Source: an uncultured Candidatus Saccharibacteria bacterium (GTDB lineage: Bacteria; Patescibacteriota; Minisyncoccia; Phycocordibacterales; CAIZLB01). Taken from it: a DNA stretch of 64,000 bases. Every line of letters begins with the position of its first letter. Positions within the stretch are counted from its first letter, which is position 1. The translations under genes and the position numbers were made by a program. Under the pieces are notes generated by a model. The model made no database searches. It had not been told where the DNA came from and worked only from the letters and a program-made list of their open reading frames with translations. This document shows positions 44,298-64,000 of this stretch, one piece after another. The DNA lies in contig CAZKAF010000002.1 in NCBI GenBank assembly GCA_964550955.1, positions 9,335-73,334 of the forward strand, written 5' to 3'.

Positions 44298-45251
44298 CTA
44301 ATCCAGCGATCCGTTTTCAGCCGCTTCCTTATATACGGATTCGATTCCCTGCCGAAGCCCTATGGAATGCTTCCAGCCGAGAGCGTGCAGCCTGCTTACG
44401 TCCATGAGCTTCCTCGGCGTGCCGTCAGGCTTCGTGGCATCAAACGCCAATGAGCCTTCATACCCGACGATGTTCGCCACCAATTCGGCCAAATCCCTGA
44501 TAGTAATGTCTTCGCCTACGCCGATATTTATGAAATCCATGCCATCATACGCATTCATCAGAAACACGCAGGCGGAAGCCAAATCGTCCACATGCATGAA
44601 TTCCCTGTACGGCGCGCCGGTCCCCCAAAGCTCCACCGTCGGCGCGCCTGACTTCTTTGCGGCATGGAACTTTCGCATGAGAGCAGGGAGGACGTGCGAA
44701 GTTTGCAGATCGTAATTATCATTCGGACCGTACAGGTTCGTCGGCATTACGGAAATGAAATTGTCGCCGTATTGATTCCTGTACGATTCGCACATCTTGA
44801 TGCCGGCAATCTTTGCGACCGCGTACGGCTCGTTCGTGTATTCAAGCGGGCCGGTCAGCAGGCTCTCTTCCTTGAGCGGCTGCGGAGCAAGCTTGGGGTA
44901 AATGCACGATGACCCGAGAAACAGCAGCTTCTTTCCTTTCGAAGAATCCTCCTTGTGAATCAGATGAGTCGCATGAATGACGTTGGACTGGATCATCAGG
45001 TTCTCATAAATGAAATCCGCGCGATACGCATCGTTCGCGACAATTCCTCCCACCTTGGCCGCGGCAAGAAAGACATATTCGGGCTTCTCTGATTTGAAGA
45101 ACTCAAGCACGGCAGCCTGATTCTTCAGGTCCAGTTCTTTCGAAGTTCGGCAGACGATGTTCGCGTATCCTTCGCGCTCCAAATGCCGCTTGATGGCAGA
45201 GCCGACCATGCCCTTGTGACCGGCTATATATATTTTTGATTCCTTATTCAT
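44298..45251 (-). CDS. fcl: GDP-L-fucose synthase (GDP-4-keto-6-deoxy-D-mannose 3,5-epimerase/4-reductase)
   Basis: [15 protein letters not shown] Rossmann motif, YAVAKIAG catalytic YxxxK, extended-SDR architecture. Lies directly downstream of gmd. Confidence 0.85.
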
Positions 45252-46362
45252 GCTGAAGCGGAACGTCAAATCCCCCGTTTTTCATATGCAGCTCTTTTTC
45301 AACTTCAGCCATGTCGGAAAGGACCATTTCTTTTACTAATTCATCAAGGCTGTATGTCGGAACCCAGCCGAGCTTTTCCCGCGCCTTCGTCGCGTCGCCG
45401 ACAAGCAAATCCACTTCAGCCGGCCTGAAGTACTCCGGGCTTACTTTTACGAGGACTTTCCCCGTCGCCTTGTCCGTACCGACCTCTTCAATGTCCGCGC
45501 CGCTCCATTCGATCTGAATGCCGGCATGCGCGAACGCCTTTGCCACGAATTCCCTTACGGATATCTTCTGGCCCGTCGCGAGCACGTAATCTTCAGGCGT
45601 TTCCTGCTGCAGAATCCTCCACATTCCTTCAACATAATCCTTGGCATGTCCCCAGTCCCGGAGCGAATTCAAATTTCCAAGATACAGGACTTCCTGCAAG
45701 CCGTGCTTGATTCGCGCGGCCGCTCTCGTAATCTTCCGAGTCACGAACGTCTCGCCACGAATGGGGCTTTCATGGTTAAACAATATGCCGTTTGTCGCAT
45801 ACATTCCATACGCCTCCCTGTAATTCTTCGTAATCCAATACCCGTACAGTTTTGCAACGCCGTACGGAGAACGCGGATAGAAAGGAGTCGTCTCTTTTTG
45901 AGGAACTTCCTGAACGAGGCCGTACAGTTCGGAAGTCGAAGCCTGATAGAAGCGGGTCTTCTTTTCAAGACCGAGAATCCTGATCGCCTCGAGAATGCGA
46001 AGCACGCCGATGCCGTCCGCATTGGCCGTATACTCGGGCGTTTCGAAAGACACCTGCACGTGCGACTGCGCGGCAAGATTGTATATTTCATCCGGCTGAA
46101 CCTGCTGAACGAGCCGGATCAGGTTAGTGGAATCGGTCATGTCGCCGTAATGCAGGAAAAACCGCACGCCCGCTTCATGCCGATCCTTGTACAGATGATC
46201 GATGCGGTCAGTGTTAAGAAGCGACGAGCGGCGCTTCATGCCGTGCACGACGTATCCTTTTTCCAAAAGGAGCTCTGCCAGATATGCGCCGTCCTGTCCC
46301 GTAATGCCGGTAATCAGCGCCACCTTGCCAGTGCCGCCGCTTTTTTGTTCGGATGAATTCAT
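45244..46362 (-). CDS. gmd: GDP-mannose 4,6-dehydratase
   Basis: [31 protein letters not shown] (YxxxK) and the NHESPIRG Gmd signature. Confidence 0.9.
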
Positions 46363-46393
46363 GAGGACATTATAAAGTACTTGTGAATTAATA

Positions 46394-46421
46394 CAAAAAG
46401 CCCCTCAAAAGGGGCTTTTTG
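46394..46421. terminator. Rho-independent terminator downstream of the 46458..48107 gene
   Basis: aaaaAGCCCCT-caaa-AGGGGCTtttt hairpin. Confidence 0.6.
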
Positions 46422-46457: not shown

Positions 46458-48107
46458 TTAATCCTGACACTGGGCAGGATTGTATTGAGGGCAGTTGCTG
46501 TCGCAGGCATCAGCGTATCTGCAATCTTCCTCACGATCATCCTGACAATCAGGATCATCCCCGTCTACGTACCCATCGCCGTCGTTATCAATGCCGTCAT
46601 TGCAGATTTCCCCGGTAGGCGTCGGGCAATCGCGCGTGTCGGCCCTGTCTATGAGACCGTCGGCATCATTATCGATGCCGTCAACGCATGCATGCACTTC
46701 CGGATTGTAAGGAACCGCCCGTTCATTTTTTTCAGATATAGGGTACTGCGCCATTGCGCCGTAAGAACAATAAATGACGTATTGCTGAGCGGTTTCACTG
46801 TCCGTTCGATATCGCCACCCCACAGTCTGACCTTGGGCCAAAGGAACCCACCCAGGGGCTTTATTGAAATCATCCACTGTTGTACCAAGAGGCATCCACA
46901 CCAGCCTGTGGTTATTTATCATGGCACTGCAGTCAGGGACAACTAGCGGGTTATACGGAGTAGCGGGTACATTTTTAATATCATCCCATGTACCTGGCGG
47001 CGGCATGGAACCGTTGCCAGAACCGCCAGGACCTGAACCGCCCGCGCTATTTCCAGAACCGGTCGCCCCGGGATCCCTGAGAGAGACCTGTACGCCCGTG
47101 AGCTTCGCATACTGGGCCCGAAGTTGCTGAAGATATGCTTCTTCCGCCGTTCCTGCCAGCTGTATTGTCGCCCCGCCGCAGATGAATCCTCCCGAAGCCG
47201 CAAGCTTGGTTGCGAGCTTTGGCTGCTCCGTCTGCGCTTTCTTCAAATCGCCCTCAAGCTTCTTGAGAGCGGCCTTGTCGGCAGCAAGAGTCTTCTTCAC
47301 CGCGGCAAGCTCGGTCTGCTTCTGCGCGACCTTCGTTTTGGTATCCGAATAATCGGCATAATAGAACTTGAGTTCCTTTATCCTGGCTTCAATTGCAAAA
47401 ATATCAGATTCCGCCTTTGCAATCGCCTGCTTCTTTGCTCCGACCTGTGCCGGAAGGCTTGAGAGCTGTGACTGATACGCCTGAAGCGAATCGTAGTCAG
47501 CCTGCTTGATGCAGACGCACGACTTCTTTTTTGCATTAGCCAACTCAGTAGTGACGCTTGAGATTTGGGTCACAATGCCGTTTACCGCAGCCCTCGATTG
47601 AGCTGACTTGGCACGCAACTCCGCTATCTCCGCCTCTGTCGGCTGAGGAGGGCGCTGCGCCGCAGCCCGACTTGAGAGGTCTTGCATGGTCTTGATTTGC
47701 GCAGCCAGATCTCTTATTTCGCGATCGTCGCGCGCGGTCCTGTTCTTCTTTGCGACCAATTGGTCATGGTTTGCCTGCAGGCGATCCAAATCTCTCTGGA
47801 TCGTGAGGGCTGGAGCGAACGCGGCATTCGAAGCCGATCGCTCAATATCCCTCAGACGAATCGAGTATCTTTCGGACTCCGTGGACAATTCCATGTATCT
47901 CGAAGTAAGCTCCGCTTTTTTGGACTCAAGCGCCGCTATGTCTGCGGGCGTGTAGCATGACTTGGCAACGCCTGCCACCATCGCCTTCAATGCGGTTACC
48001 GGATTGAGGCTTCCGCCTACCTGAGCGGAGACGAACAAGGCTGACGCCGTTATGCCGACTACCGCCCCTGAAAGGGCGAGCGCTTTGGAAATTTTTGATG
48101 TAAACAT
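46458..48107 (-). CDS. Secreted coiled-coil protein with a C-terminal Cys/Asp-rich calcium-binding-like repeat region
   Basis: Signal peptide, then about 300 aa of heptad-like charged/Ala-rich sequence, then a Gly-rich linker, then a C-terminus with CVDGIDNDADGLIDRADTRDC and CNDGIDNDGDGYVDGDDPDC (thrombospondin-type-3 / putative metal-binding-motif-like repeats). Confidence 0.6.
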   Translation of the reverse strand: MFTSKISKALALSGAVVGITASALFVSAQVGGSLNPVTALKAMVAGVAKSCYTPADIAALESKKAELTSRYMELSTESERYSIRLRDIERSASNAAFAPALTIQRDLDRLQANHDQLVAKKNRTARDDREIRDLAAQIKTMQDLSSRAAAQRPPQPTEAEIAELRAKSAQSRAAVNGIVTQISSVTTELANAKKKSCVCIKQADYDSLQAYQSQLSSLPAQVGAKKQAIAKAESDIFAIEARIKELKFYYADYSDTKTKVAQKQTELAAVKKTLAADKAALKKLEGDLKKAQTEQPKLATKLAASGGFICGGATIQLAGTAEEAYLQQLRAQYAKLTGVQVSLRDPGATGSGNSAGGSGPGGSGNGSMPPPGTWDDIKNVPATPYNPLVVPDCSAMINNHRLVWMPLGTTVDDFNKAPGWVPLAQGQTVGWRYRTDSETAQQYVIYCSYGAMAQYPISEKNERAVPYNPEVHACVDGIDNDADGLIDRADTRDCPTPTGEICNDGIDNDGDGYVDGDDPDCQDDREEDCRYADACDSNCPQYNPAQCQD

Positions 48108-48238: not shown

Positions 48239-50536
48239 TTATTGTCCCGAAGACGGGTCCCTCCCTGCCTGAATGTCTCGGATGTACGCCTCGCCCTGCT
48301 CCTTGAAGTCAGGCACGAGCCCGATCACCTTCCGAATTTCAGCAATGGCATTCGCGGGCTGCTTCGCCCTGATGTACGCTCCCGCGAGCAGCATCTTGAA
48401 CTGGGGATTGCCCGGTTCAGAATCCGCCTTCATCTTCGCGACCCTGATCAGCTCGGCAAAATTCTTCGTCTCTTCGAGCACGCTGAGAACTCGCGAGTCC
48501 GTCCAGAGGTCCGTGCTCGAGCCGAAGAGAGCCTGCGTCTCGCTTAATTTGCCGACGTATATGAGCGAGATGCCGTAGAGCGTTTTTGCCTCCGGATTTT
48601 CCTCATGCAGCTCGTACGCTTTCCTGAAGACGTCGGACGCTTCGGTCATTTTCTGCTGCGCGACAAGCGTCAGGCCTTTCTGATACAGGAACGACTGCTT
48701 GGTCGGAGAAAGCGCGATGGCCCTGTCGATGTATGTCAGGGCGTCGTCATGCAATCCGAGGCGCTGGAAATACATGCCGTAGAATATGAACGGCCGCGGG
48801 TCCAGCGGAGTTTCCTTGAGCGACTGCTCATATCGGGCGGCCACGAGCTGAATCCATTCTTTCGCGGTCGCCTCGTTCTCGCCCATCTGAATCATCTGAG
48901 GCGCGATTTCGGCAATTCGCTCATTGATTTCGGTCGAAGCGAACGTGTTGTACGAAAGGGCTTTCTTGTAGAGACCGAGGAGGCGTTCCGGCGTCGCGCT
49001 TGTCGGCATGGGCTTCCCCTCGCTCGCGCCCTGAAGGGCCTGCGCGACCTGACTCTGAAGCTGCAGGGCCTGGATGAGCGTCCTGCCCGCCATGTATGGC
49101 TTGTAAACTATGGCATATGCCCCGGCGAGGAAGACAATAACCACGACAGTTCCGGCCACGTACTGAACAGGCTCCTTCGAGACAAGCGGTTCGGCGGCGA
49201 GAGACCTGATATCCGCTTCGGTCCTGCCGTCATGGCGAGCCGTAACGTACGCAAGAACCAGGAAGAACAATATGTAGCTCGTGAGATTGTCGAACACGAA
49301 CAGGTTGTGGACGAAGTATGCCGTGAGAAATCCGGTAATGATTGCCCGCTCAGTGATGGTCCATTCCGCTTCGGACGATCGCCGGATCCATATCATGTAG
49401 AGCACGGTTCCGAAAAGGCCGAGGTAGCTGATCAGGCCGAGAAAGCCGGACGCTATCAGCCAGTCCATGAACACGTTATGCGTCCGGTCGAACCACTGTT
49501 CCTGACCGTACATCGCGGGGTCATAGTATTTTGCAAATACGAATCCGAAGTTATCCTGTCCCCAGCCGACAAGCGGCCGTTCCTTGACGCCTTCCCAGGA
49601 CATTGCCCAGAGCATCTTTCGGGCCTTGCCCTGATCCTCGAGCACGCCAGCAACGTCAGTGGTAATCAGCGAGCTGAATCGATACAGCAGGTCATTGCCC
49701 TTGATGAATGCCGTGTTTTTCGACGCGCCGAGAATGGCGACGAAGACGAGAACGAGCGCAAGCAGGCCGACAGCCGATTTCCTGTACAGCTTGTTGCCCT
49801 TTTCAAAGATCGCCACGAGAACGGTGGCGACGAAGAGGCCTGCGACAAGGCCGGCGAACGATCCTCGGGTACCGGTGCTGTACATCACGATAAGGTTGAA
49901 CAATCCGATGGCGCCGACGCCGATGTATCTGCCGGGCGCCTCGACGAACGGCTTGACCTTAAGCAGGCATGTCACGAAGTAAATCGCGATGAAGACGTGC
50001 ATCAATGAATATATTCCAAGATACGACGAGTTGCCGAGCGCCCCTGACATTCGGAACGATCCGAAGATGCCGTTTTTGTCCGCAAGCTCGGAAAATCCCT
50101 GAAGGCCGACGGCGACGCTTGCGAGAAGCGACATTGAAAACAGCGTCGCCCACATGGCCCTCGTCCTAAGCACCGAAGCCGAGACTACGAAGAATGCCAG
50201 CAAGTGAAGAATGGTCACGTACCCCTCCATTCGCTCGAAATTGCTCCAGAACGATTTGAACGGATCGACGGACGTCATCGTGGCGATGCCGAGGATTGCC
50301 GCGAACGCGATGACGGACCAAAGGACGATGCTTTTTCTCGGCAGGAAAGACCGGTCCCTCATGATGAGGATGAGGTATGCGGCGGTCGCGACGAGCACCA
50401 GGAGCCTGAAGAGATGCGCCTTGCCCGTTATGTACGGGAAGAAAAGCGAAGTGCTGACAACGAGCGGAACGAGCAAAGTCAGGAAAATCGAGGAGACTGA
50501 CGTGTACTCCAGGATCTTGTTAAAGGTTCGGTTCAT
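48239..50536 (-). CDS. O-antigen ligase-family (Wzy_C domain) membrane protein fused to C-terminal TPR repeats. Could be WaaL/Wzy-like or a PglL-type O-oligosaccharyltransferase.
   Basis: About 12 TM helices with the Wzy_C-type loop YSTGTRGSFAGL. The C-terminal 280 aa are TPR-like (YKKALSYN, AIALSP, AYELHEENPEAK). Confidence 0.75.
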   Translation of the reverse strand: MNRTFNKILEYTSVSSIFLTLLVPLVVSTSLFFPYITGKAHLFRLLVLVATAAYLILIMRDRSFLPRKSIVLWSVIAFAAILGIATMTSVDPFKSFWSNFERMEGYVTILHLLAFFVVSASVLRTRAMWATLFSMSLLASVAVGLQGFSELADKNGIFGSFRMSGALGNSSYLGIYSLMHVFIAIYFVTCLLKVKPFVEAPGRYIGVGAIGLFNLIVMYSTGTRGSFAGLVAGLFVATVLVAIFEKGNKLYRKSAVGLLALVLVFVAILGASKNTAFIKGNDLLYRFSSLITTDVAGVLEDQGKARKMLWAMSWEGVKERPLVGWGQDNFGFVFAKYYDPAMYGQEQWFDRTHNVFMDWLIASGFLGLISYLGLFGTVLYMIWIRRSSEAEWTITERAIITGFLTAYFVHNLFVFDNLTSYILFFLVLAYVTARHDGRTEADIRSLAAEPLVSKEPVQYVAGTVVVIVFLAGAYAIVYKPYMAGRTLIQALQLQSQVAQALQGASEGKPMPTSATPERLLGLYKKALSYNTFASTEINERIAEIAPQMIQMGENEATAKEWIQLVAARYEQSLKETPLDPRPFIFYGMYFQRLGLHDDALTYIDRAIALSPTKQSFLYQKGLTLVAQQKMTEASDVFRKAYELHEENPEAKTLYGISLIYVGKLSETQALFGSSTDLWTDSRVLSVLEETKNFAELIRVAKMKADSEPGNPQFKMLLAGAYIRAKQPANAIAEIRKVIGLVPDFKEQGEAYIRDIQAGRDPSSGQ

Positions 50537-55374: not shown

Positions 55375-56277
55375 ATGCACAAGATAAAAAACATCATCCG
55401 AAACTTGGTCGAAAAAATGACGGGCAGGAAATTAATCTTCGCTCGAGACAAAGGCAGGCACACGGCCGCCCTGTCAAAGCTGGGCTTTTGGTATGCGGGA
55501 AACGTGTTTGATACCGCGGATATCGCATACGGCATATCGCAAAACGGCGTCGTCGAAGAGGAAGAGACGAATCTGGTAATACGAATAATGGATTTCCTGA
55601 CGAGCAAAAATGCGCTGACATCATTTTACGATATCGGCGCGAACACCGGATATTACGGAATCCTTGCTGGCTACAGATATGGAGCGTCAGTCGAAGTCAA
55701 TTCCTTCGAGCCCATCGAAGAACATGCGGACTGCATCAAGAAAAGCATGTATCTGAACAGGCTGGAAAGCATCATGCGGGTTCACAGCCTGGCGCTTGGC
55801 AATGAAAACAAGACTGAAAAGATATATGTTGCCGGATCCGGAACTTCCCTGAACAAGGATTTCATACAGGGCAATTTTGAATCGACCGCGCAAATCGAAG
55901 TCAGAAGGCTTGACGATATCGTCCTCGGAGGCAAAGAGGGTAAATCATCAATTAGGCTTCCGGACTTCGTCAAGATAGATGTCGAGGGATATGAGCAGCA
56001 GGTGCTTGAAGGAGCGATGACGACGCTGAGAGAAGGACTGCCCGTTCTTTATGTCGAAATCGCCAAAACTCTCAAGAACTTAGGAAGAGACGGTTTTGAA
56101 AGTTCTTCTTGCTTGGAAACATTCGGCCTCTTGAGCAAGCTCGGGTACGAGCCATTCATTCTCAAAGAATCCAAGATTGCAAAGTTTGATCCGGCAAACT
56201 TTGCAGACGGAGTGATGATGTATCTGTTCCTTCATGCGGCCAAGCACAAGGACATAAGGGAGATGCTCTTGCAATAA
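55375..56277 (+). CDS. FkbM-family SAM-dependent methyltransferase
   Basis: FYDIGANTGYYG and the FkbM signature FVKIDVEGYEQQVLEGA. Confidence 0.8.
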   Translation: MHKIKNIIRNLVEKMTGRKLIFARDKGRHTAALSKLGFWYAGNVFDTADIAYGISQNGVVEEEETNLVIRIMDFLTSKNALTSFYDIGANTGYYGILAGYRYGASVEVNSFEPIEEHADCIKKSMYLNRLESIMRVHSLALGNENKTEKIYVAGSGTSLNKDFIQGNFESTAQIEVRRLDDIVLGGKEGKSSIRLPDFVKIDVEGYEQQVLEGAMTTLREGLPVLYVEIAKTLKNLGRDGFESSSCLETFGLLSKLGYEPFILKESKIAKFDPANFADGVMMYLFLHAAKHKDIREMLLQ

Positions 56278-57574: not shown

Positions 57575-58513
57575 ATGCTCATCATCTACACTCGACCCAA
57601 CGGCATATTCAAGAAAGAGCGCCTGAAGCACGTCCTTTCGCGCATTACCGGAAAGCTCCGGGGACCGAGGGCCGTGCTTGAAAGCATGAGGCGCGGATTG
57701 AATGCGCTTCATGTTCCCTACCGCGTCAACCCGTCGTACAGGAAAATACGGCCCGAGGATGTCGTTCATGTCGTGTCAGGCGCCGAAACCTTGAGGGAAT
57801 GCGTCGAGCTGAAGAAGCAAGGCATCATCAGGAAACTGATCGCCGGGCCGAGCATCGCCGTCATTCCGAGCGAAGAGCAAGAACTGCTTCTTGACCCGAG
57901 CATAGACGCGGTGCTCGTGCCTTCGGATTGGGTAAAGGACCTGTACGCGCGCCTGAATCCTGAATTGTCGGGAAAGACATTCGCATGGTTCGCGGGCGTC
58001 AATGTCTCAAAGTCGAAACCGAGAAAGAATTCTGAAAAGGAAATCGACTATCTCATTTATTACAAGAACGCTGATCCGTCGCTCCTGACATTCGTCGAGT
58101 CGCAGCTCGTGAAGCGGCACAAGAGCTTCAAGAAAGTCATCTACGGAGAATTCGAGCAGGCTGATTTTTTCAGGAAGCTCAAGAAATCAAAAGCCATGAT
58201 CTATCTCTCGCCTTCCGAAAGCCAGGGACTGGCATTGAACGAGGCCTGGATGCGCGACGTTCCGACGCTCGTATGGGACCGCGGATATTGGGAATACAAG
58301 GACGTCAGATGGGAACATGAGAAGATAAGCGCGCCGTACCTGACGGACGAGCTCGGACTGACATTCGGCGGAGAATCTGACTTTGTCCAGAAGCTGGAAC
58401 TCTTCGAACTGAAGCTTGCGGATTTCAGGCCGAAAGAATATTCCCTTGAGCACTTTACCGACGAGAAATCCGTCCAGAACCTCTTGGGCATAATCGATTC
58501 AAATAACGTATAA
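57575..58513 (+). CDS. Putative glycosyltransferase (GT-B-like C-terminal half)
   Basis: SESQGLALNEAWMRDVPTL resembles the E-x7-E donor-binding motif of GT4/GT1 enzymes. The N-terminal part is divergent. Confidence 0.5.
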   Translation: MLIIYTRPNGIFKKERLKHVLSRITGKLRGPRAVLESMRRGLNALHVPYRVNPSYRKIRPEDVVHVVSGAETLRECVELKKQGIIRKLIAGPSIAVIPSEEQELLLDPSIDAVLVPSDWVKDLYARLNPELSGKTFAWFAGVNVSKSKPRKNSEKEIDYLIYYKNADPSLLTFVESQLVKRHKSFKKVIYGEFEQADFFRKLKKSKAMIYLSPSESQGLALNEAWMRDVPTLVWDRGYWEYKDVRWEHEKISAPYLTDELGLTFGGESDFVQKLELFELKLADFRPKEYSLEHFTDEKSVQNLLGIIDSNNV

Positions 58514-58541: not shown

Positions 58542-59300
58542 ATGAACCACCTTCTGCAGAATTCAAAAGAGCTTATCAAGAAAGCTATCAGGTACTCCCT
58601 GTCCCCCTTTATCCTCGGAGATTATTACGCATACAAGAAAGTGAGAGGGTCGGACCGCTTCATGGTCAGCCCCGCAGATTTCTACCCGTGCATCAAGGAC
58701 AAGACGATCGCGACCGGATTCGACCGGCATTATGTGTACCACACTTCCTGGGCGGCGCGAGTAGTCAGGGAAATAAACCCCGAATATCATGTGGACATTT
58801 CATCAAGCCTGTTCTTTTGCGGAATAGTCTCCGCATTCGTTCCGGTTCGCTTTTATGACTACCGGCCGGCTGACCTCAGGCTGAGCGGCCTGGAAACGGA
58901 ACGAGCGGACCTGCACGACCTCCAGTTCCCGGATGAAAGCGTCAAGTCGCTCTCATGCATGCATACCCTCGAGCATATCGGCCTCGGCAGATACGGCGAC
59001 CCCATCGATGCCGAAGGCGACCTCAAGGCCATCGAGAGCTTGAAACGAGTGACGGCGAAAGACGGCTCGCTTCTGATAGTAGTCCCTATCGGCAAGCCGA
59101 AAATCGAGTTCAACGCGCATCGCATTTATTCATACGAGCAAATCATTTCATACTTTGCAGACGAAGACATGTACCTTCACGAATTCTCATTTATCCCCGA
59201 ATTCGAAAAAGACGGCGGCCTCGTAAGAAACGCCGATCCGAAAATTTCCGAGAACGAGCACTATGCATGCGGATGTTTTTGGTTTAAAAAGAAAGCGTAG
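58542..59300 (+). CDS. DUF268-family putative sugar O-methyltransferase
   Basis: HTLEHIGLGRYGDPID motif characteristic of DUF268 methyltransferase-fold proteins. Confidence 0.5.
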   Translation: MNHLLQNSKELIKKAIRYSLSPFILGDYYAYKKVRGSDRFMVSPADFYPCIKDKTIATGFDRHYVYHTSWAARVVREINPEYHVDISSSLFFCGIVSAFVPVRFYDYRPADLRLSGLETERADLHDLQFPDESVKSLSCMHTLEHIGLGRYGDPIDAEGDLKAIESLKRVTAKDGSLLIVVPIGKPKIEFNAHRIYSYEQIISYFADEDMYLHEFSFIPEFEKDGGLVRNADPKISENEHYACGCFWFKKKA

Positions 59301-59406: not shown

Positions 59407-60267
59407 TTACTTAGTGAACAGATAGTCGCATGCCTTTGACTCGACAAGCGAGAATCCTGCGTCCTGAATCAGCCCGATGCATTTGTCACGATTCCTGTCG
59501 CTGATTTCTATCATCATATACGAGCCCGCTGGCATTGCGGCCAGGGTCGCAGTCATGCCTGACAAGACTTCGAACTCGAAGCCCTCCACGTCCATTTTCA
59601 CGAAGTCGATTTCGGATTGGCGCATGTTCTGGTCAAGGCACAGCGCGTCGACGGGCACGGCCTGTACGGTCACGACGGTGTCCCAGACAGCACCGGATTC
59701 CTTGTCCACGATTCTCCCTCCTCCCAAGTGCCGGGTATCGACTTCAAAGGTGACCGGGTCCGCATTATTGCTGACAGCTTTTTGAACGAGGGTGACTTTG
59801 TCTTCGAGATCATTGAGCCCGATATTTGCCTTCAAGACATCAAACGTAATCGGGTTCGCCTCGACGGCAACAGTTCTCTCATAGCCGAATGCCAGCGCGG
59901 CGAGCAGCGAATAGCGTCCGATGTTCGCGCCAATATCCAGCGCGATTCTTTTCTGCTTGGGCATGCCGACCCAGCGCCTCAAATCTGACTCGAAATACGG
60001 AGCGGAGATGGTGAAGCTGTCATTGAACGGCCGTACCAGAAATTTGCCGACGCTGTTTGAAATCACGAATCGCTTGGCCGAATTGTCCAGAAGATGCGCG
60101 ACCGGCGCCGGAAACTTTCGGAGCGCCGACTTGGCAACATTCACGCCATGCGTGAGGAAAAAATAAAATATAAATGAAAGCTTGCCTCCTTTGATGACTT
60201 TGGTCTGGAATGCAGTGTCCCATATCTGGCTGATTTTGTTCAATTTCATGCCCAAATTATATACCAT
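59407..60267 (-). CDS. FkbM-family SAM-dependent methyltransferase (second copy, opposite strand)
   Basis: LDIGANIGRYS and FVKMDVEGFEFEVLSG motifs. Confidence 0.8.
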   Translation of the reverse strand: MVYNLGMKLNKISQIWDTAFQTKVIKGGKLSFIFYFFLTHGVNVAKSALRKFPAPVAHLLDNSAKRFVISNSVGKFLVRPFNDSFTISAPYFESDLRRWVGMPKQKRIALDIGANIGRYSLLAALAFGYERTVAVEANPITFDVLKANIGLNDLEDKVTLVQKAVSNNADPVTFEVDTRHLGGGRIVDKESGAVWDTVVTVQAVPVDALCLDQNMRQSEIDFVKMDVEGFEFEVLSGMTATLAAMPAGSYMMIEISDRNRDKCIGLIQDAGFSLVESKACDYLFTK

Positions 60268-60356: not shown

Positions 60357-61307
60357 ATGATAGTCCTCAAGCTCAAAGCCGGCCTCGGAAACCAGATGTT
60401 TCAATATGCCTATGCAAGAGCCCTCGCGCTTAGAAGCAACGCCGAGCTTGCCTTAGATTTAAGCTGGTTTAACAGCGTATCTGAACGCGACACGAAGCGG
60501 GAGTATGGCTTGCATCATTTCAACATAGGCGCGGACGTCAGGATCAAGGCTGAATTGCCCGGCAAGACCGAGAAAGGATCCGCCGGAAAACTATTTCACA
60601 GAATCTTAAATAAGATGCGCCGACTTGCGCTCAACAGAAGGGATTATGTTTTCTATCCGGCGCTTATCCGTCCGCGGAAACATGCCGTAGTAGAGGGATA
60701 TTGGAATTCCGAAAAGTATTTTAAGGACTTCGCGGACGCGATCAGGGACGAACTTTCCATAAAGGCCCAGCTCGGGCGGGGCGCGATGGCCGCGCATGAA
60801 GAATTGATAAAATTAAAAGAAACAAATGCTCTGACATGCATCCATGTTCGGCGAGGCGACTACGTAAGCAGCAGCCGCGCTTCCGCGCATCACGGCCTGT
60901 CGGGAGTCGAATACTACGAGAAAGCCGTCGAGGTTCTGGTCGAGAAAATGAAAAATCATTCAGCTTCTTCAACAGCCTCAACGGCTTCAAGACCGCTGAT
61001 GTTCATTCTGGCATCGGACGACATCGAATGGACGAAGGAAAACATCGTGCCCTTGCTCCCCGAAGGATCAGCGCACAGGGCGATTTCGAACCCTGCCGAA
61101 ATAAAGGATTACGAGGAAATGCATCTCATGTCTCTGTGCGATCACTTCATAATCGCGAACAGCACGTTCAGCTGGTGGCCGGCATGGCTGTCGGAGAGCG
61201 CGGAAAAGTCAGGACAAGAAAAAATCGTAATCGGACCGAAGCGCTGGATCGCCGATCCGTCCGCAGACACGACAGATGTGATGCCCGAAAGGTGGATTAG
61301 GATTTAA
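60357..61307 (+). CDS. Alpha-1,2-fucosyltransferase (glycosyltransferase family 11). The start is probably MIVLKLK; the ORF is open from 60321.
   Basis: GT11 N-terminal signature IVLKLKAGLGNQMFQYAYARALA, GYWNSEKYF, HVRRGDYV and SDDIEW motifs. Confidence 0.8.
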   Translation: MIVLKLKAGLGNQMFQYAYARALALRSNAELALDLSWFNSVSERDTKREYGLHHFNIGADVRIKAELPGKTEKGSAGKLFHRILNKMRRLALNRRDYVFYPALIRPRKHAVVEGYWNSEKYFKDFADAIRDELSIKAQLGRGAMAAHEELIKLKETNALTCIHVRRGDYVSSSRASAHHGLSGVEYYEKAVEVLVEKMKNHSASSTASTASRPLMFILASDDIEWTKENIVPLLPEGSAHRAISNPAEIKDYEEMHLMSLCDHFIIANSTFSWWPAWLSESAEKSGQEKIVIGPKRWIADPSADTTDVMPERWIRI

Positions 61308-61317
61308 ATAAGCAAAA

Positions 61318-61962
61318 ATGCAAACAGAATACAAAGAAATACTGGGCAATCAAAATATAAAAGGCCTGCTGGTTGATTTTGACAACACGATATACAAATA
61401 CGACCCCTGTCACGACAAGGCAATAAAGGCAGTCCACTCGAACCATTTTTCAGATATTGAATTTGAGGAATTCAACGACTCATACAAAGCCGCCCAGAAA
61501 CAGGTAAAGGCGAGGATACCGAATCAGGCAGCGAGCCATTCGAGACTTCTTTATTTTCAGAACCTGTTAGAAAAAATGGAGGGCAAGAGCAATCCAAAAA
61601 AATCCCTCGTCCTGGAGGACGAATACTGGTCTGCGTTCAGGGAGCAGATGGAAATCGATCCTGAGATAATTGATTTCATCGGACTTTGCCGGAAAAACGG
61701 CCTGAAAATATGCATGGTGACGGACTTGACCGCCTCGGTACAATTCCATAAGATGTGCGCATCAGGGATATCCGAACTCTTCGATTTCATCGTAACTTCA
61801 GAGGAAGCCGGCGCCGAAAAGCCTGGTAAAGCCATATTTCAACTTGCTCTTGAGAAAATGAGGCTTTCAGAGTCAGAAGTCGTCATGATTGGCGACGACG
61901 ACACAAAAGACATATATGGAGCGAACACACTTGGAATTAAAGCATATTCTGTCAAGAATTGA
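61318..61962 (+). CDS. HAD-superfamily hydrolase
   Basis: Motif I LLVDFDNTIY, motif III K, and motif IV IGDDDTKDIYGA. Confidence 0.75.
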   Translation: MQTEYKEILGNQNIKGLLVDFDNTIYKYDPCHDKAIKAVHSNHFSDIEFEEFNDSYKAAQKQVKARIPNQAASHSRLLYFQNLLEKMEGKSNPKKSLVLEDEYWSAFREQMEIDPEIIDFIGLCRKNGLKICMVTDLTASVQFHKMCASGISELFDFIVTSEEAGAEKPGKAIFQLALEKMRLSESEVVMIGDDDTKDIYGANTLGIKAYSVKN

Positions 61963-64000
61963 GGCCACGCTCGCTGCAGGCAAAGAGGCCTTTTTGCCGA
62001 TTTTAAGATCCCCGCTCTTCTTGATTCCTCTTTCGATTAAAATTATCGCGAGCTTTTTCTTTGCATCAGGCGCGGCCGTCGATTCCTTCATTCCTTTCTT
62101 GAAATATTTTGCGCTGGCAAATGTCGCAGACATATATTCGCATGCCGCAACGCTAAATCCGGAAATGCTTTTTCCGTATCCAAACCCGGTGCCGTGGATT
62201 TTTTCAATCGCATACGCGTCAGGATCATTCTTTTTCGGAACGGCGCTGGCTGCAGTGACACATTTGGACCTATTCTTGCTCAGGATACCCGTACTGCTGG
62301 CTGACACGGGCATACTTCTGATATTGGTCGCATGGTTCAAAAATAAGGAAAAAGCATTGCTCGCGCTTTACTGGTGCTCGCCGATTACCTTTTACATAAG
62401 CTACGTGCACGGGCAATTGGACGCAGTTCCCGTGTTTTTCTTATTTTGCTTTCTATACCTTTTCTTCAGGGAAAGAGATTGGGCGGCCCTCTTCTTCTTA
62501 GGACTATCCATTGCTTCAAAAACCGGGATGATCCTTGTCCTCCCTTTCACCTTCCTGTATTTCTTGAGAGAAAGGGGCTTCAGCATCAAGACTCTGTTAA
62601 AAATACTCCTGCCGCCGGCAATATTTCTAATGCTGAACGCGGCGAATCTGCTAAATCCGCATTTCATCGATTCGGCGCTCATCAACCAGCAGCAGCTCAG
62701 GATATTCGATTTAAGAATAATGTTCAACGAGAAAACCGTCTTGTACGTGCTGCCTATCGTATACACGATGCTCCTGTTTAAATTTGCGACGTTCAAGCGT
62801 TACAGCAGGGACCTGTTTATGACTTTTCTCGGATTCAGCTTTTTTACCATCACTCTTTTCATACCACCAATACCAGGGCTGTATTTTTGGATAATCCCTT
62901 TTGCCGTTTATTTCTTCGCGAAGGCGGAGGGCAGGCAAAGAACGCTGTACCACCTGCTTTCTTTTGCATATTTTCTCTTCTTCATCATGACGCAAGACTC
63001 GGACCTGATCGAATCCTTTCGTCCGTTCGCCGAATCCGATATTGAGAACGTTTATGCCTTCATGGAGGCAAATTGGTCTTCACCCGCAATCATAAGCAAC
63101 CTGTCATTCACCTTTTTGCAGGGAGTATTGCTCGCAAACATATATTGGATTTCAAAGAAAGGCATAGAGCAGTATACGAGATACAAGATGCACTATAAGC
63201 CATTCTTGATCGGGGTTGCCGGAGATTCCGGAAGCGGAAAGAGCACTTTTGCGGACCTGATGGTTGACATATTTGCCCAAAAGCACGTTTCCGTAATTGC
63301 GGGAGATGATATGCACAAATGGGAACGCGGCGATGAAAAATGGACAAGGTACACCCACCTTGACCCTCAGGCCAATGAGCTGCATTCAGAGATAAACTGC
63401 CTCTACAAGCTGAGAGACGGGTCTTCCATCATCAGGCGCAATTATGACCATGCTTCCGGAAAGTTCGCATTGCCCAAGGTGCATGATTCGAAGAGGCTGG
63501 TTATCTTCGAAGGCCTTCATTCATTATTTTTGGAAAAAGCCAGGGAGATATTCGACCTCAAGGTATTTATCTCGCCGGAAGAGCAGCTGAAATTGCACTG
63601 GAAAATCATGCGGGACCAGGCAAAGAGAGGCTACACGAAAGAAGCGGTTTTGGAGCAGGTCAAATCGAGGCAAGGCGATGTCGAAAAATACATCAACGTG
63701 CAGGAAAAGCATTCCGACATATCGATTTCGCTAAAAAATACTTTTGATTTGGGCGACCGCATCGGCAATCAGGATGTCGAATTATGCCTGTATCTTGAGA
63801 TTGGCTGCACGAACAATGTCAATCTGGCCCCGCTGCTGGAAGAGCTCTCGGCTCACTTGGACACGGATTTCAAGGTAAATGATGAAAGGCAGACAATGAA
63901 ATTTTCAGGCAATATTGACCGGGAATCCCTTGACAGGATTTCAAGAATTGCGGTTCCAGAATTAGACGAAATCGGAATCAGCCAAAGAAAGTGGAGCGAC
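61916..64000 (+). CDS. 3'-partial ORF that continues past the window end: polytopic membrane domain fused to a phosphoribulokinase/uridine-kinase-family P-loop domain. Not present in the supplied ORF track.
   Basis: Hand translation of the frame with codon starts congruent to 2 mod 3. It is open from the stop at 61886 to nt 64000. The first ATG is at 61916 (overlapping the HAD gene by 47 nt); another ATG is at 62165. The first roughly 330 aa form about 10 hydrophobic helices. Then comes the Walker A KPFLIGVAGDSGSGKSTFADLM (compare PRK VIIGVAADSGCGKST and Udk IGIAGGSGSGKTT), followed by ISPEEQLKLHWKIMRD. The start is uncertain. Confidence 0.6.
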   Translation, partial: MERTHLELKHILSRIEATLAAGKEAFLPILRSPLFLIPLSIKIIASFFFASGAAVDSFIPFLKYFALANVADIYSHAATLNPEMLFPYPNPVPWIFSIAYASGSFFFGTALAAVTHLDLFLLRIPVLLADTGILLILVAWFKNKEKALLALYWCSPITFYISYVHGQLDAVPVFFLFCFLYLFFRERDWAALFFLGLSIASKTGMILVLPFTFLYFLRERGFSIKTLLKILLPPAIFLMLNAANLLNPHFIDSALINQQQLRIFDLRIMFNEKTVLYVLPIVYTMLLFKFATFKRYSRDLFMTFLGFSFFTITLFIPPIPGLYFWIIPFAVYFFAKAEGRQRTLYHLLSFAYFLFFIMTQDSDLIESFRPFAESDIENVYAFMEANWSSPAIISNLSFTFLQGVLLANIYWISKKGIEQYTRYKMHYKPFLIGVAGDSGSGKSTFADLMVDIFAQKHVSVIAGDDMHKWERGDEKWTRYTHLDPQANELHSEINCLYKLRDGSSIIRRNYDHASGKFALPKVHDSKRLVIFEGLHSLFLEKAREIFDLKVFISPEEQLKLHWKIMRDQAKRGYTKEAVLEQVKSRQGDVEKYINVQEKHSDISISLKNTFDLGDRIGNQDVELCLYLEIGCTNNVNLAPLLEELSAHLDTDFKVNDERQTMKFSGNIDRESLDRISRIAVPELDEIGISQRKWSD

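What the first reader, a model, noticed from the sequence alone, without database searches (positions are those of the whole stretch)
44298..64000. Large fucose- and methyl-rich glycan assembly locus, possibly a protein O-glycosylation system
A contiguous locus of more than 19 kb encodes the following. gmd and fcl for GDP-fucose synthesis. A GT11 alpha-1,2-fucosyltransferase. Three to four further glycosyltransferases. Four methyltransferase domains (two FkbM, one DUF268-like, one fused class I). A Wzx flippase, a HAD phosphatase, and a Wzy_C-family protein with a TPR tail. The organism's gene content looks LPS-free and streamlined. Wzy_C-family enzymes include PglL/PilO-type O-oligosaccharyltransferases that glycosylate pilins, and two type IV pilin-like genes lie in the same window. 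The locus could therefore build a heavily O-methylated, fucosylated glycan that is transferred to surface proteins (pilins or the giant adhesin) rather than to lipid A.
Basis: inference. Interest (0 to 1): 0.65.

Follow-up and report, generated by a model that had tools for sequence, protein, structure and literature searches.

The report
Variable surface-sugar island with conserved ligase
An ultrasmall bacterium with no lipopolysaccharide carries a swappable gene island for a fucose-containing, heavily methylated sugar chain, next to a phylum-wide conserved enzyme that most likely attaches finished chains to a surface target, possibly proteins.

Summary
The gene inventory is real: gmd/fcl, a Wzx-like flippase, three Pfam-supported glycosyltransferases plus a GT11 fucosyltransferase, four methyltransferase domains and a Wzy_C+TPR membrane protein. 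The organism is a Paceibacteria/Parcubacteria (CPR) bacterium. The key gene is the Wzy_C-TPR protein (48239-50536, minus strand). It has a WaaL-like 12-helix core, a 13th helix and a TPR domain predicted to lie outside the cell. It belongs to a large, well-conserved family (at least 585 species genomes) at a fixed site upstream of murB/secA. Next to it lies a lower-GC glycan island whose gene content differs between genomes: Wzx-type in 25 of 56 loci, Wzm/Wzt ABC-type in 9 of 56, never both. This fits an en-bloc ligase or oligosaccharyltransferase, not a Wzy polymerase. The acceptor is unresolved. The WsfB architecture and the lineage's lack of LPS favour protein. The PglL_A motif is absent, and pilin genes are unlinked (1 of 84 loci). 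The locus runs about 10 kb past the window. The HAD gene and the unnoticed last ORF (a GT-C-like/PRK-like kinase fusion) belong to a separate nine-gene cassette inserted into the island. Verdict: a new member of a known kind, with a plausible but unproven O-glycosylation reading.

The parts
44298..45269 (-). fcl-like GDP-L-fucose synthase
   Evidence: NF047922 scores 496.3 bits, just under the 500 cutoff. PF01370 gives 2.4e-60.
45244..46362 (-). gmd, GDP-mannose 4,6-dehydratase
   Evidence: TIGR01472 scores 600 bits against a cutoff of 415. PF16363 gives 7.8e-158.
46458..48107 (-). Secreted or anchored coiled-coil protein (549 aa) with a Gly/Ser/Pro-rich linker and a Cys/Asp-rich C-terminus. 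Not a glycan enzyme. It lies between the ligase and gmd and is lineage-specific.
   Evidence: No Pfam family matches, and there is one N-terminal hydrophobic segment. A homologue is found only in the closest relative, L003/L004.
48239..50536 (-). Wzy_C-TPR protein (765 aa). It has a WaaL-like 12-TM core, a 13th TM helix (about 455-483) and an extracytoplasmic TPR domain (about 490-765). This is the proposed en-bloc glycan ligase/O-OTase.
   Evidence: PF04932 scores 64.3 bits. The AF2 model has pLDDT 90.6. The N-terminal domain's best PDB match is WaaL 7tpg, E 7.8e-6, TM 0.52/0.61. R224, R286, R306 and H353 are invariant in 56 homologues. There are 2173 hits with E<=1e-5 in the homologue search, relatives in at least 585 species genomes, and 3753 cluster representatives at E<=1e-30.
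50622..51947 (+). Wzx-like MOP-family flippase, divergent from the ligase gene across an 85-bp spacer
   Evidence: PF01943 gives 6.6e-25 and there are about 10 TM segments. NF041871 matches weakly. A Wzx-like gene occupies this position in 25 of 56 orthologous loci.
51972..53666 (+). Two-domain protein: an N-terminal domain of about 320 aa with no Pfam assignment, and a C-terminal class I SAM methyltransferase
   Evidence: Methyltransf_11 gives 2.6e-21 at residues 357-451. The N-terminal domain also occurs as a free-standing protein of about 290 aa, with no Pfam domains on record for the listed homologues. Its only Pfam hint is a weak DUF1647 match, E 0.048.
53687..54406 (+). GT2 glycosyltransferase (a)
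   Evidence: PF00535 gives 6.7e-9. The gene start is taken from the gene call on the same contig.
54403..55371 (+). GT2 glycosyltransferase (b)
   Evidence: PF00535 gives 4.3e-13.
55375..56277 (+). FkbM-family methyltransferase 1
   Evidence: PF05050 gives 1.6e-14.
56279..57571 (+). GT-B glycosyltransferase (Glycos_transf_1, GT4-like)
   Evidence: PF00534 gives 6.4e-8.
57575..58513 (+). Soluble 312-aa protein of unknown family that travels with the DUF268/GT11 genes. It may be a divergent glycosyltransferase, but that is inference only.
   Evidence: There are no Pfam, NCBIfam or PDB sequence hits. Orthologues are present in L003, L005 and L035 at 39-62% identity.
58542..59300 (+). DUF268-type class I methyltransferase
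   Evidence: PF03269 gives 8.8e-15, with an overlapping Methyltransf_11 match at 6.5e-4.
59407..60249 (-). FkbM-family methyltransferase 2, with weak similarity to the V. cholerae RfbT family
   Evidence: PF05050 gives 4.1e-19. PF05575 gives 7.8e-6, below its cutoff.
60357..61307 (+). GT11-family (alpha-1,2-fucosyltransferase family) glycosyltransferase
   Evidence: PF01531 gives 3.2e-26. Orthologues lie next to DUF268 in L003, L005, L015 and L035.
61318..61962 (+). HAD-IA phosphatase, the first gene of an inserted nine-gene cassette and not part of the Wzx/ligase pathway
   Evidence: PF00702 gives 2e-21. The best NCBIfam match is the RuBP 5-phosphatase-like model, 179 bits against a cutoff of 330. 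The gene is absent from all 84 orthologous ligase loci. It travels with the PRK fusion in other phyla.
61916..64000 (+). The first 694 of 719 aa of a membrane domain (GT-C-like) fused to a PRK/uridine-kinase-family P-loop kinase. It runs off the window and belongs to the cassette.
   Evidence: The frame is open from 61916 to the window end. PF00485 gives 1.6e-40 at residues 431-605. The full gene is seen in L001. Some homologues carry MptA_B, ALG3 or ALG6/8 Pfam hits, and some are fused to Aldolase_II.

Best explanation
The region is the surface-glycan island of a Paceibacteria (CPR) bacterium. It is served by a conserved terminal transferase.

Shown:
- gmd and fcl can supply GDP-L-fucose.
- The island encodes a Wzx-like flippase. 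It has three Pfam-supported glycosyltransferases plus a GT11 fucosyltransferase-family enzyme, with one more GT2 beyond the window, and four SAM-methyltransferase domains. It has no second polytopic (Wzy-like) protein and no Wzz.
- The neighbouring Wzy_C-TPR protein has a WaaL-like fold and invariant Arg/Arg/His residues.
- It is conserved at the same chromosomal site in hundreds of species, while the adjacent island varies and uses either Wzx or Wzm/Wzt export.
- By helix count and the positive-inside rule, its TPR domain lies on the same extracytoplasmic side as the catalytic loop.

Inferred mechanism:
1. A phosphoglycosyltransferase encoded elsewhere primes undecaprenyl phosphate.
2. Cytoplasmic transferases build one oligosaccharide of roughly 6-7 sugars that includes fucose.
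3. The FkbM, DUF268 and class I enzymes O-methylate it.
4. Wzx flips it across the membrane.
5. The Wzy_C-TPR enzyme transfers it en bloc, without polymerisation, to an acceptor outside the membrane.

The lineage is reported to lack lipid A. The architecture matches WsfB-type O-oligosaccharyltransferases. By analogy it also resembles GT-C+TPR protein O-mannosyltransferases. The acceptor is therefore most likely Ser/Thr/Tyr of exported surface proteins, with the TPR domain holding the acceptor or a partner protein.

Sub-confidences: ligase rather than polymerase, about 0.75. Protein as the acceptor, about 0.45.
For: - Gene functions.
- Lineage. Absence of lpxC/kdsA is reported for a Parcubacterium in PMC5220378.
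- Fold: AF2 pLDDT 90.6 and 83.4. The best PDB hit is WaaL 7tpg at E 7.8e-6, followed by FtsW.
- Catalytic residues: R224, R286, R306 and H353 are invariant in 56 sequences. PMC3643930 reports that WaaL R215/R288/H338 and PglL R224/R298/H349 are conserved between the two families.
- Conserved site: SecA begins within 6 kb downstream in 48 of 55 loci, often with murB in between.
- Variable island: 143 upstream ORFs from 18 loci are dominated by GT2, GT1, FkbM and other methyltransferases, epimerases, GMD, Wzx or ABC2/ABC/Wzt_C.
- Export type: 25 of 56 loci are Wzx-type and 9 of 56 are ABC-type, and the two are mutually exclusive. L015 is a concrete example, with Wzm+Wzt+DUF268+GT11 directly upstream of the ligase.
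- GC content: backbone and ligase gene 0.535-0.539, island 0.491.
- Topology: four helices lie between the catalytic loop and the TPR domain, and every cytoplasmic loop is Arg/Lys-rich.
- Architectural precedents: WsfB has Wzy_C plus a C-terminal TPR, and WsaB has the adjacent TPR protein WsaA (PMC2943079). TMTC1-4 have a GT-C domain plus TPR (PMC7801869).
Against: - No acceptor has been identified.
- The PglL_A motif (PF15864) is not detected, even at E<=10.
- No pilin, S-layer or other obvious target gene is conserved beside the ligase. A pilin-like ORF is present in 1 of 84 loci.
- No initiating PGT is found in the window or in the 8-kb extension.
- The strong conservation of the outer loops, and the murB neighbour, would fit an invariant non-protein acceptor such as peptidoglycan or a glycolipid equally well.
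- 22 of 56 loci could not be assigned to Wzx or ABC type by my crude criteria.
- LPS absence was not checked in this genome. Only 72 kb was visible.
Confidence: 0.5

Rival explanations
1. The ligase and glycan chemistry are the same, but the acceptor is not a protein. The Wzy_C-TPR enzyme attaches the flipped glycan to an invariant envelope component. This could be peptidoglycan (a secondary cell-wall glycopolymer) or a membrane glycolipid (an LPS-like lipoglycan in a single-membrane cell).
For: - The extracytoplasmic loops are unusually conserved across the class. The motifs are FFPYITGK, FWSNxERMEG, GWGQDNF, QEQWFDRTHN and HNxFxFDN. This suggests an invariant acceptor.
- murB, a peptidoglycan precursor gene, is the commonest immediate downstream neighbour.
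- The closest solved fold is WaaL, which uses a lipid-linked acceptor.
- No target-protein gene is linked to the ligase.
Against: - In well-studied Gram-positive bacteria, glycopolymers are attached to peptidoglycan by LCP phosphotransferases, not by Wzy_C enzymes (general knowledge).
- TPR domains are typically protein-binding modules.
- WsfB has the same architecture and is the predicted S-layer protein O-OTase (PMC2943079).
- The murB/secA linkage may simply be inherited gene order.
Confidence: 0.3
2. The Wzy_C-TPR protein is the Wzy-type polymerase of a Wzx/Wzy-dependent capsule or exopolysaccharide. The TPR tail acts as an export or chain-length scaffold.
For: - PF04932 also matches many Wzy polymerases.
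- The gene sits head-to-head with wzx.
- No other polytopic candidate polymerase exists in the island.
- TPR domains do occur in polysaccharide export scaffolds (general knowledge: BcsC, PgaA, PelB).
Against: - Orthologues sit next to Wzm/Wzt ABC-type clusters, which need no polymerase, in 9 of 56 loci. Examples are L015 and the ABC-type loci among those scanned.
- The protein stays 33-72% identical while the island's gene content changes completely. Wzy polymerases normally co-vary with the repeat unit (general knowledge).
- No Wzz/PCP or outer export component is present in the window locus.
Confidence: 0.1
3. This is a pilin-specific TfpO/PilO-like system, in which the glycan is added to the type IV pilins encoded at 2987-3517 and 7562-8827.
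For: Two genuine pilin-like genes with G|FTL(I/M)EL N-termini lie in the window. Wzy_C enzymes include the pilin O-OTases PilO and PglL (PMC2943079, PMC3643930).
Against: - The pilin genes are about 40 kb from the ligase.
- Only 1 of 84 orthologous loci has a pilin-like ORF within 10 kb.
- PglL genes are often adjacent to their pilin targets (PMC3643930).
- The PglL_A motif is absent.
Confidence: 0.05

Closest known systems
WsfB / WsaB(+WsaA) S-layer O-oligosaccharyltransferases and slg glycan clusters of Paenibacillus alvei and Geobacillus stearothermophilus (PMC2943079)
   Same: - A Wzy_C-domain membrane enzyme in a bacterium without LPS.
- A C-terminal TPR (WsfB) or an adjacent TPR protein (WsaA).
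- Location in or next to a glycan biosynthesis cluster.
- ABC-transporter-dependent versions exist.
- O-methylated sugars and methyltransferase-fusion enzymes (WsaE) are present.
   Different: - No S-layer structural gene lies beside the ligase here.
- The initiating transferase (WsaP/WsfP-type) is not in the cluster.
- This window's version is Wzx-dependent and probably makes a single unit.
- The CPR family has its own invariant outer-loop motifs.
PglL/PglO general O-glycosylation systems (Neisseria, Acinetobacter, Burkholderia; PMC3643930)
   Same: - Wzx-type flippase plus a Wzy_C-family OTase with no Wzy polymerase.
- En-bloc transfer of a short Und-PP-linked oligosaccharide.
- Conserved Arg/Arg/His residues.
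- The same enzyme serves variable glycans.
   Different: - The PglL_A signature is not detected.
- There is no adjacent pilin or target gene.
- The CPR protein has an extra 13th TM helix and a 275-aa external TPR domain.
- The organism belongs to a lineage reported to lack LPS (general knowledge: probably a single membrane).
WaaL O-antigen ligase (PDB 7tpg)
   Same: It is the best structural match for the 12-TM core (Foldseek E 7.8e-6, TM 0.52/0.61). The catalytic residues sit in a large external loop. WaaL serves both Wzx- and ABC-exported glycans.
   Different: Sequence identity is only 16%, and a profile search found no PDB sequence hit. WaaL has no TPR tail. WaaL's acceptor, lipid A-core, is not expected in this lineage. 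The gene here is not in an LPS core locus.
TMTC1-4 / TMEM260 eukaryotic protein O-mannosyltransferases (PMC7801869, PMC10214176)
   Same: This is an analogy only. TMTC1-4 combine a membrane-embedded GT-C-type N-terminal region with a TPR region and act in protein O-mannosylation. TMEM260 is a further protein-specific O-mannosyltransferase.
   Different: They belong to a different GT-C clan (PMT-like). The donor is Dol-P-Man, a single sugar, rather than an Und-PP-oligosaccharide. No homology is claimed.
O-antigen/capsule loci at fixed chromosomal sites (for example, between conserved flanking genes in Enterobacteria; general knowledge)
   Same: A lower-GC gene island whose content differs between genomes, carrying sugar-nucleotide, GT, modification and export genes at a conserved position. 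Here that position is between the ligase-murB-secA side and a TrwB/VirB4-like ATPase gene.
   Different: The ligase itself is the conserved flank, and the glycan is not destined for lipid A.

Membership tests
Wzy_C superfamily (PF04932; WaaL/PglL/Wzy-like GT-C membrane enzymes) | Wzy_C domain above the Pfam gathering score | tested here: met
   64.3 bits against a cutoff of 31.7, residues 212-372.
Wzy_C superfamily (PF04932; WaaL/PglL/Wzy-like GT-C membrane enzymes) | WaaL-like polytopic fold | tested here: met
   The AF2 N-terminal model's best PDB hit is 7tpg_B WaaL, E 7.8e-6, TMq 0.52, TMt 0.61. The next hit is FtsW.
Wzy_C superfamily (PF04932; WaaL/PglL/Wzy-like GT-C membrane enzymes) | Conserved Arg, Arg and His in or near the large external loop (E. 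coli WaaL R215/R288/H338; PglL R224/R298/H349) | tested here: met
   R224, R286, R306 and H353 are invariant in 56 homologues. Residue equivalence is inferred from motif position (TGTRGS, RTHN), not from a superposition. Reference residues come from PMC3643930.
WaaL O-antigen ligase sensu stricto | A lipid A-core acceptor is made by the organism | not testable with these tools
   Only 72 kb of the genome is visible. The lineage is reported to lack lpxC/kdsA (PMC5220378).
WaaL O-antigen ligase sensu stricto | Gene located among LPS core genes | tested here: not met
   The neighbours are murB/secA on one side and a glycan island on the other.
PglL-type O-oligosaccharyltransferase | PglL_A motif (PF15864), which distinguishes PglL from WaaL | tested here: not met
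   There is no hit at E<=0.01 on the full protein, or at E<=10 on residues 253-765.
PglL-type O-oligosaccharyltransferase | Frequent adjacency to a pilin or other target gene | tested here: not met
   A pilin-like ORF lies within 10 kb in 1 of 84 loci. The window's pilin genes are 40 kb away.
PglL-type O-oligosaccharyltransferase | Transfer of Und-PP-glycan to Ser/Thr of proteins | not testable with these tools
   This needs glycoproteomics or reconstitution.
WsfB-type (Gram-positive S-layer) O-OTase | Wzy_C domain plus a C-terminal TPR | tested here: met
   The architecture is described for WsfB in PMC2943079.
WsfB-type (Gram-positive S-layer) O-OTase | Encoded in or next to the glycan biosynthesis cluster, including ABC-transporter-dependent clusters | tested here: met
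WsfB-type (Gram-positive S-layer) O-OTase | Linked S-layer structural gene or demonstrated S-layer glycoprotein | tested here: inconclusive
   No recognisable S-layer gene lies beside the ligase. A lineage-specific secreted coiled-coil protein (46458-48107) is adjacent only in this clade.
WsfB-type (Gram-positive S-layer) O-OTase | Sequence relatedness to WsfB/WsaB closer than to WaaL | not tested
Wzy O-unit polymerase | Works only with Wzx-flipped units and is absent from ABC-transporter pathways | tested here: not met
   Orthologues sit beside Wzm/Wzt clusters with no Wzx-like gene in 9 of 56 loci.
Wzy O-unit polymerase | Sequence co-varies with the repeat unit (poor conservation between serotypes) | tested here: not met
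   Identity is 33-72% over the full length across at least 585 species, with unrelated island contents.
Wzx-dependent lipid-linked glycan assembly locus | MOP-family flippase, nucleotide-sugar genes and glycosyltransferases clustered together | tested here: met
Wzx-dependent lipid-linked glycan assembly locus | Initiating phosphoglycosyltransferase (Bac_transf or Glycos_transf_4) in the locus | tested here: not met
   Neither family matched any of the ORFs scanned in the window (those of at least 150 aa upstream, and the locus genes) or in the 8-kb extension. It is presumably encoded elsewhere.
GDP-L-fucose de novo pathway | Gmd and Fcl equivalogs | tested here: met
   gmd scores 600 bits against 415. 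fcl scores 496.3 against 500, marginally under the cutoff, with full-length alignment.

The most novel reading that the evidence does not exclude
The Wzy_C-TPR family is the general protein O-oligosaccharyltransferase of Paceibacteria. It sits beside secA because it glycosylates Sec-exported surface proteins as they emerge, with the external TPR domain capturing them. The strain-variable, methyl-rich glycan island beside it is then the functional equivalent of an O-antigen locus displayed on proteins. It would set host recognition and phage or immune evasion in these episymbiotic ultrasmall bacteria.
Probability: 0.3. Interest if true: 0.7.

Novelty: new member of a known kind. Interest (0 to 1): 0.5.

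Why it matters
CPR/Patescibacteria make up a large share of bacterial diversity. They are mostly uncultured, and their envelope is described as unclear (PMC5220378). This analysis gives a concrete, testable handle on it. A single conserved WaaL-like transferase with an external TPR domain is present in at least 585 species genomes. It is paired with a gene island of differing content, enriched in methyltransferases. If the acceptor is protein, this would be a phylum-scale O-glycosylation system and a likely determinant of host attachment and phage susceptibility. If the acceptor is cell wall or lipid, it would define a new envelope glycoconjugate in bacteria that lack LPS. The enzyme's apparent tolerance of many glycans could also interest glycoengineering. 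I found no paper on this family in four searches of the held library.

Tried and rejected
- **Foldseek with the full model:** it returned only TPR proteins such as OGT and APC subunits. I re-modelled the N-terminal 492 aa alone to reach WaaL.
- **Profile of the N-terminal domain against PDB sequences:** no hit, even at E<=10.
- **PDB sequence and low-stringency Pfam searches:** I ran these on the unknown 312-aa protein, the N-terminal domain of the 564-aa protein, the membrane part of the PRK fusion and the 579-aa membrane protein. Nothing usable came back.
- **BLASTP of the 312-aa protein against the neighbouring GT4-like protein:** no similarity, so the idea that it is a GT-B rests only on my reading of a motif.
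- **The 549-aa coiled-coil protein as a Wzz-like co-polymerase:** rejected. It has no Wzz/GNVR hit, only one hydrophobic segment, and is conserved only in the nearest relative.
- **A conserved acceptor gene between the ligase and secA:** not found. The intervening gene is usually murB.
- **First pilin regex:** too strict, since it missed the window's own pilins. I loosened it.
- **Literature searches for this family in CPR:** nothing relevant was found.
- **The WaaL structure paper:** not held, so I could not confirm WaaL topology from it.

Full report
**1. Observation**

| Gene | Coordinates | Evidence |
|---|---|---|
| fcl | 44298-45269, minus | NF047922, 496.3 bits vs cutoff 500 |
| gmd | 45244-46362, minus | TIGR01472, 600 bits vs cutoff 415 |
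| Wzy_C+TPR protein | 48239-50536, minus | PF04932, 64.3 bits, plus many TPR families |
| Wzx-like flippase | 50622-51947 | Polysacc_synt, 6.6e-25 |
| Unknown domain + class I methyltransferase (564 aa) | 51972-53666 | Methyltransf_11, 2.6e-21 |
| Two GT2 enzymes | 53687-54406; 54403-55371 | PF00535 |
| Two FkbM methyltransferases | 55375-56277; 59407-60249, minus | PF05050 |
| GT1/GT4-like enzyme | 56279-57571 | PF00534 |
| DUF268 methyltransferase | 58542-59300 | PF03269 |
| GT11 enzyme | 60357-61307 | PF01531, 3.2e-26 |
| HAD hydrolase | 61318-61962 | PF00702 |

Corrections:
- The 549-aa ORF at 46458-48107 is a secreted coiled-coil, Cys-rich protein with no enzyme signature.
- The final 2 kb is a single ORF running off the window. 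It is a multi-pass membrane domain fused to a PRK/uridine-kinase-family domain (PF00485, 1.6e-40).
- A 312-aa soluble protein (57575-58513) has no detectable family.
- No initiating phosphoglycosyltransferase family matched among the scanned window ORFs or in the extension.

**2. Organism and context**

The rest of the window encodes the following:
- a short EF-Ts, ribosomal proteins and RNase J;
- a split transketolase with RpiB, Rpe and GAPDH;
- two type IV pilin-like proteins;
- a 2558-aa LVIVD-repeat protein.

Homologues of the Wzy_C-TPR protein that carry a source name are almost all labelled Paceibacterota, Parcubacteria or Patescibacteria. A curated Parcubacteria genome paper reports no lipid A/LPS genes (lpxC, kdsA). 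It calls the CPR envelope unclear and speculates about glycoproteins or a glycosylated S-layer (PMC5220378). So "LPS-free" is reasonable at lineage level. It was not tested on this genome.

**3. The locus extends beyond the window and is composite**

An exact look-up of the HAD protein retrieved the same contig (L001; its start matches window position 51318). After HAD come, in order:
- the 719-aa membrane/PRK fusion;
- an Aldolase_II protein;
- an unknown 217-aa protein;
- an NTP_transf_3 protein;
- an unknown 211-aa protein;
- GtrA;
- a GT2;
- a 579-aa protein with no Pfam assignment (its counterparts in other phyla are also large unassigned proteins);
- another GT2 ("GT2c");
- a TrwB/VirB4-like ATPase.

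In the orthologous locus L005, GT11 is followed directly by the GT2c orthologue and the same ATPase. In L003 a GT2 likewise follows GT11 directly. None of HAD, the PRK fusion or Aldolase_II occurs in any of 84 orthologous ligase loci. The nine genes from HAD to the 579-aa protein are therefore an insertion. GC content falls in steps that fit this picture:

| Segment | GC |
|---|---|
| Backbone | 0.535 |
| fcl to ligase | 0.539 |
| Wzx to GT11 | 0.491 |
| Inserted cassette | 0.456 |

**4. The Wzy_C-TPR protein**

*Family size and conservation.*
- The homologue search gave 2173 hits with E<=1e-5, and the listed ones are mostly near full length.
Of 600 matched stretches, 585 encode relatives.
- A profile of the N-terminal 490 positions found 3753 cluster representatives (50% identity clusters) at E<=1e-30. 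Of the best 150, 144 are at least 650 aa long, so they keep the tail.
- Fifty-six aligned homologues share invariant residues including R224, R286, R306, E346, D350, R351, H353, D358, H410, N411 and D416.
- They also share family-specific motifs: FFPYITGK, FWSNxERMEG and GWGQDNF.

*Structure.*
- AlphaFold2 models are confident: pLDDT 90.6 for the full protein and 83.4 for the N-terminal domain.
- The N-terminal domain's only strong PDB match is the WaaL ligase 7tpg (E 7.8e-6, TM 0.52/0.61), followed by FtsW.
- The full model matched only TPR proteins.
- A sequence profile found nothing in the PDB.

*Topology.*
- The model has 12 core helices, with the large loop (272-354) between helices 9 and 10.
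- After that loop come three more core helices, a short Arg/Lys-rich segment, a 13th helix (455-483) and then about seven TPR-like helix pairs.
- The R/R/H residues lie in WaaL's periplasmic loop (cited in PMC3643930).
- Four helices separate that loop from the TPR domain, and every predicted cytoplasmic loop is Arg/Lys-rich.
- The TPR domain is therefore predicted to be extracytoplasmic, beside the active site. This is inference from topology rules, not a measurement.

**5. Comparative genomics: ligase or polymerase**

- Among loci with at least 4 kb downstream, secA begins within 6 kb in 48 of 55.
- The intervening gene is commonly murB, confirmed by Pfam in the complete Campbellbacteria genome locus L033.
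- Upstream, 143 ORFs from 18 loci are dominated by glycan genes:

| Pfam family | ORFs |
|---|---|
| GT2 | 19 |
| Methyltransf_23 | 13 |
| GT1 | 12 |
| FkbM | 12 |
| Epimerase | 11 |
| GDP_Man_Dehyd | 10 |
| Polysacc_synt | 9 |
| ABC_tran | 7 |
| ABC2_membrane | 5 |
| DUF268 | 5 |
| Wzt_C | 4 |
| GT11 | 3 |
| TylF | 3 |

- A heuristic classification of 56 loci gave three groups. There were 25 with a Wzx-like protein, usually head-to-head with the ligase. There were 9 with an adjacent Wzm/Wzt pair and no Wzx-like protein. There were 22 with neither.
- The Pfam counts on the subset agree with this heuristic.
- L015 is a concrete ABC-type example: Wzm, Wzt, a methyltransferase fusion, GTs, DUF268 and GT11 lie directly upstream.
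- Island contents differ radically between loci. For example, L006 carries aminotransferase, C-methyltransferase and transketolase-type sugar genes.
- Meanwhile the ligase stays 33-72% identical.

ABC-transporter pathways finish the polymer in the cytoplasm and use a Wzy_C-family enzyme only as the terminal ligase or OTase. That is the scheme for WsaB in G. stearothermophilus (PMC2943079). A conserved enzyme serving variable donors through both export routes therefore behaves as a ligase/OTase, not a Wzy polymerase.

In this window no second polytopic protein or Wzz exists. The product is therefore probably a single oligosaccharide unit.

**6. Which acceptor**

For protein:
- The lineage is reported to lack lipid A.
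- The Wzy_C + C-terminal TPR layout is described for WsfB. WsaB has a separate TPR partner, WsaA (PMC2943079).
- TMTC enzymes offer an analogy: GT-C-type membrane enzymes with a TPR region that act in protein O-mannosylation (PMC7801869; see also TMEM260, PMC10214176).

Against, or neutral:
- PglL_A is absent.
- Pilin genes are not linked (1 of 84 loci).
- No S-layer gene is adjacent.
- The strongly conserved outer face and the murB neighbour would suit an invariant non-protein acceptor.
- WaaL and PglL are reported as not distinguishable by simple sequence analyses such as BLAST (PMC3643930). No PglL or Wzy structure appeared among the PDB matches.

I put about 0.75 on ligase rather than polymerase, and about 0.45 on protein as the acceptor.

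**7. Glycan chemistry (inferred)**

- GDP-L-fucose comes from gmd and fcl.
- A GT11-family enzyme adds fucose. The alpha-1,2 linkage is assumed from the family name only.
- Two GT2 enzymes, one GT4-like enzyme and GT2c add further sugars. The 312-aa protein and the N-terminal domain of the 564-aa protein may also do so.
- Four SAM-methyltransferase domains imply several O-methyl groups.
- FkbM 2 has a sub-threshold match to the V. cholerae RfbT family. From memory, RfbT methylates a terminal O-antigen sugar.
- Methyltransferases are abundant across the sampled islands, so methylated surface glycans look like a general Paceibacteria trait.

**8. The inserted cassette (side finding)**

- The PRK fusion has only about 100 homologue clusters. 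They occur in Patescibacteria, Bacteroidota, Alphaproteobacteria and Elusimicrobia.
- Some are further fused to Aldolase_II (about 1058 aa).
- Some carry MptA_B, ALG3 or ALG6/8 (GT-C) Pfam hits, and one JGI record is named "Gpi18-like mannosyltransferase".
- In Flexibacter, Muricauda and another CPR genome the fusion again sits with several partners. These are HAD, Aldolase_II, NTP_transf_3, GT2 and a large unassigned protein. GtrA is present in two of the three: fused to the protein in Flexibacter and free-standing in Muricauda.
- The HAD's best NCBIfam match is an RuBP 5-phosphatase model. The kinase's best match is a phosphoribulokinase model. Both score below their cutoffs.
- A plausible but unproven reading is a pathway that turns a pentulose phosphate into a polyprenyl-phosphate-linked sugar, which the GT-C domain then uses to decorate a surface glycan.

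**9. Verdict**

This is a glycan island of differing gene content, served by a conserved WaaL/PglL/WsfB-like terminal transferase, in bacteria from a lineage reported to lack LPS. Protein O-glycosylation is the leading hypothesis but is unproven, and the pilin link is not supported. I rate it a new member of a known kind, of moderate interest. The conserved CPR ligase family and the GT-C-like/PRK-like cassette are both worthwhile experimental targets.

Noticed in passing
window 61318-64000, continuing as L001 10001-19050: A nine-gene cassette is inserted between GT11 and the next GT2. It comprises HAD, a GT-C-like membrane domain fused to a PRK-like kinase, Aldolase_II, an unknown 217-aa protein, NTP_transf_3, an unknown 211-aa protein, GtrA, GT2 and a 579-aa unassigned protein. 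A similar gene set recurs in Flexibacter (L087), Muricauda (L088) and another CPR genome (L089). Some homologues fuse the kinase to Aldolase_II. The substrate is unknown, and the family is rare, with about 100 clusters.
   Followed up: partly
window 40968-50536; loci L005-L086: The gene order ligase, then murB (often), then secA is conserved. SecA begins within 6 kb downstream of the Wzy_C-TPR gene in 48 of 55 loci. In this window murB is replaced by the 549-aa coiled-coil protein, gmd and fcl. Whether this reflects a functional link to Sec export or the cell wall, or only inherited gene order, is open.
   Followed up: partly
upstream 10 kb of 18 loci, including L003, L007, L013 and L073: Methyltransferases (FkbM, Methyltransf_23/11, DUF268, TylF) are abundant among ORFs in the Paceibacteria glycan islands sampled. 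Heavily methylated surface glycans therefore seem to be a lineage-wide trait, not a peculiarity of this window.
   Followed up: partly
window 46458-48107 (minus strand): This is a secreted or anchored 549-aa protein. It has a long coiled coil, a Gly/Ser/Pro-rich low-complexity linker and a Cys/Asp-rich C-terminus, and it lies directly downstream of the ligase gene. It is conserved only in the closest relative. It is a speculative acceptor candidate, because PglL targets such as AniA are glycosylated in low-complexity regions (PMC3643930).
   Followed up: no
window 51972-52940 (plus strand): The N-terminal domain (about 320 aa) of the 564-aa methyltransferase fusion usually occurs as a free-standing protein of about 290 aa in CPR and in Margulisiibacteriota, with no Pfam domains on record for the listed homologues. 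Its only hint is a weak match to the nematode family DUF1647. The neighbouring DUF268 is also a Caenorhabditis-named family.
   Followed up: partly
window 17534-25210 (minus strand): A giant 2558-aa protein has LVIVD repeats and a Peptidase_S74 domain (the intramolecular chaperone of phage endosialidase and tail-fibre proteins) near its C-terminus. It is followed by an fn3-containing protein and by three secreted Ser/Thr-rich proteins at 26905-29450.
   Followed up: no
L001 20029-20645; L005 1-679: A TrwB/VirB4-like ATPase gene flanks the far end of the glycan island, both in this contig and in a 48%-identical relative. The island is therefore bracketed by conserved genes on both sides.
   Followed up: no
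window 12092-16853 (minus strand): This is a compact central-carbon cluster: split transketolase (N- and C-terminal halves as separate genes), ribulose-phosphate 3-epimerase, RpiB and GAPDH. From general knowledge, this is typical of streamlined CPR metabolism. It may be relevant to the pentulose-phosphate reading of the cassette.
   Followed up: no
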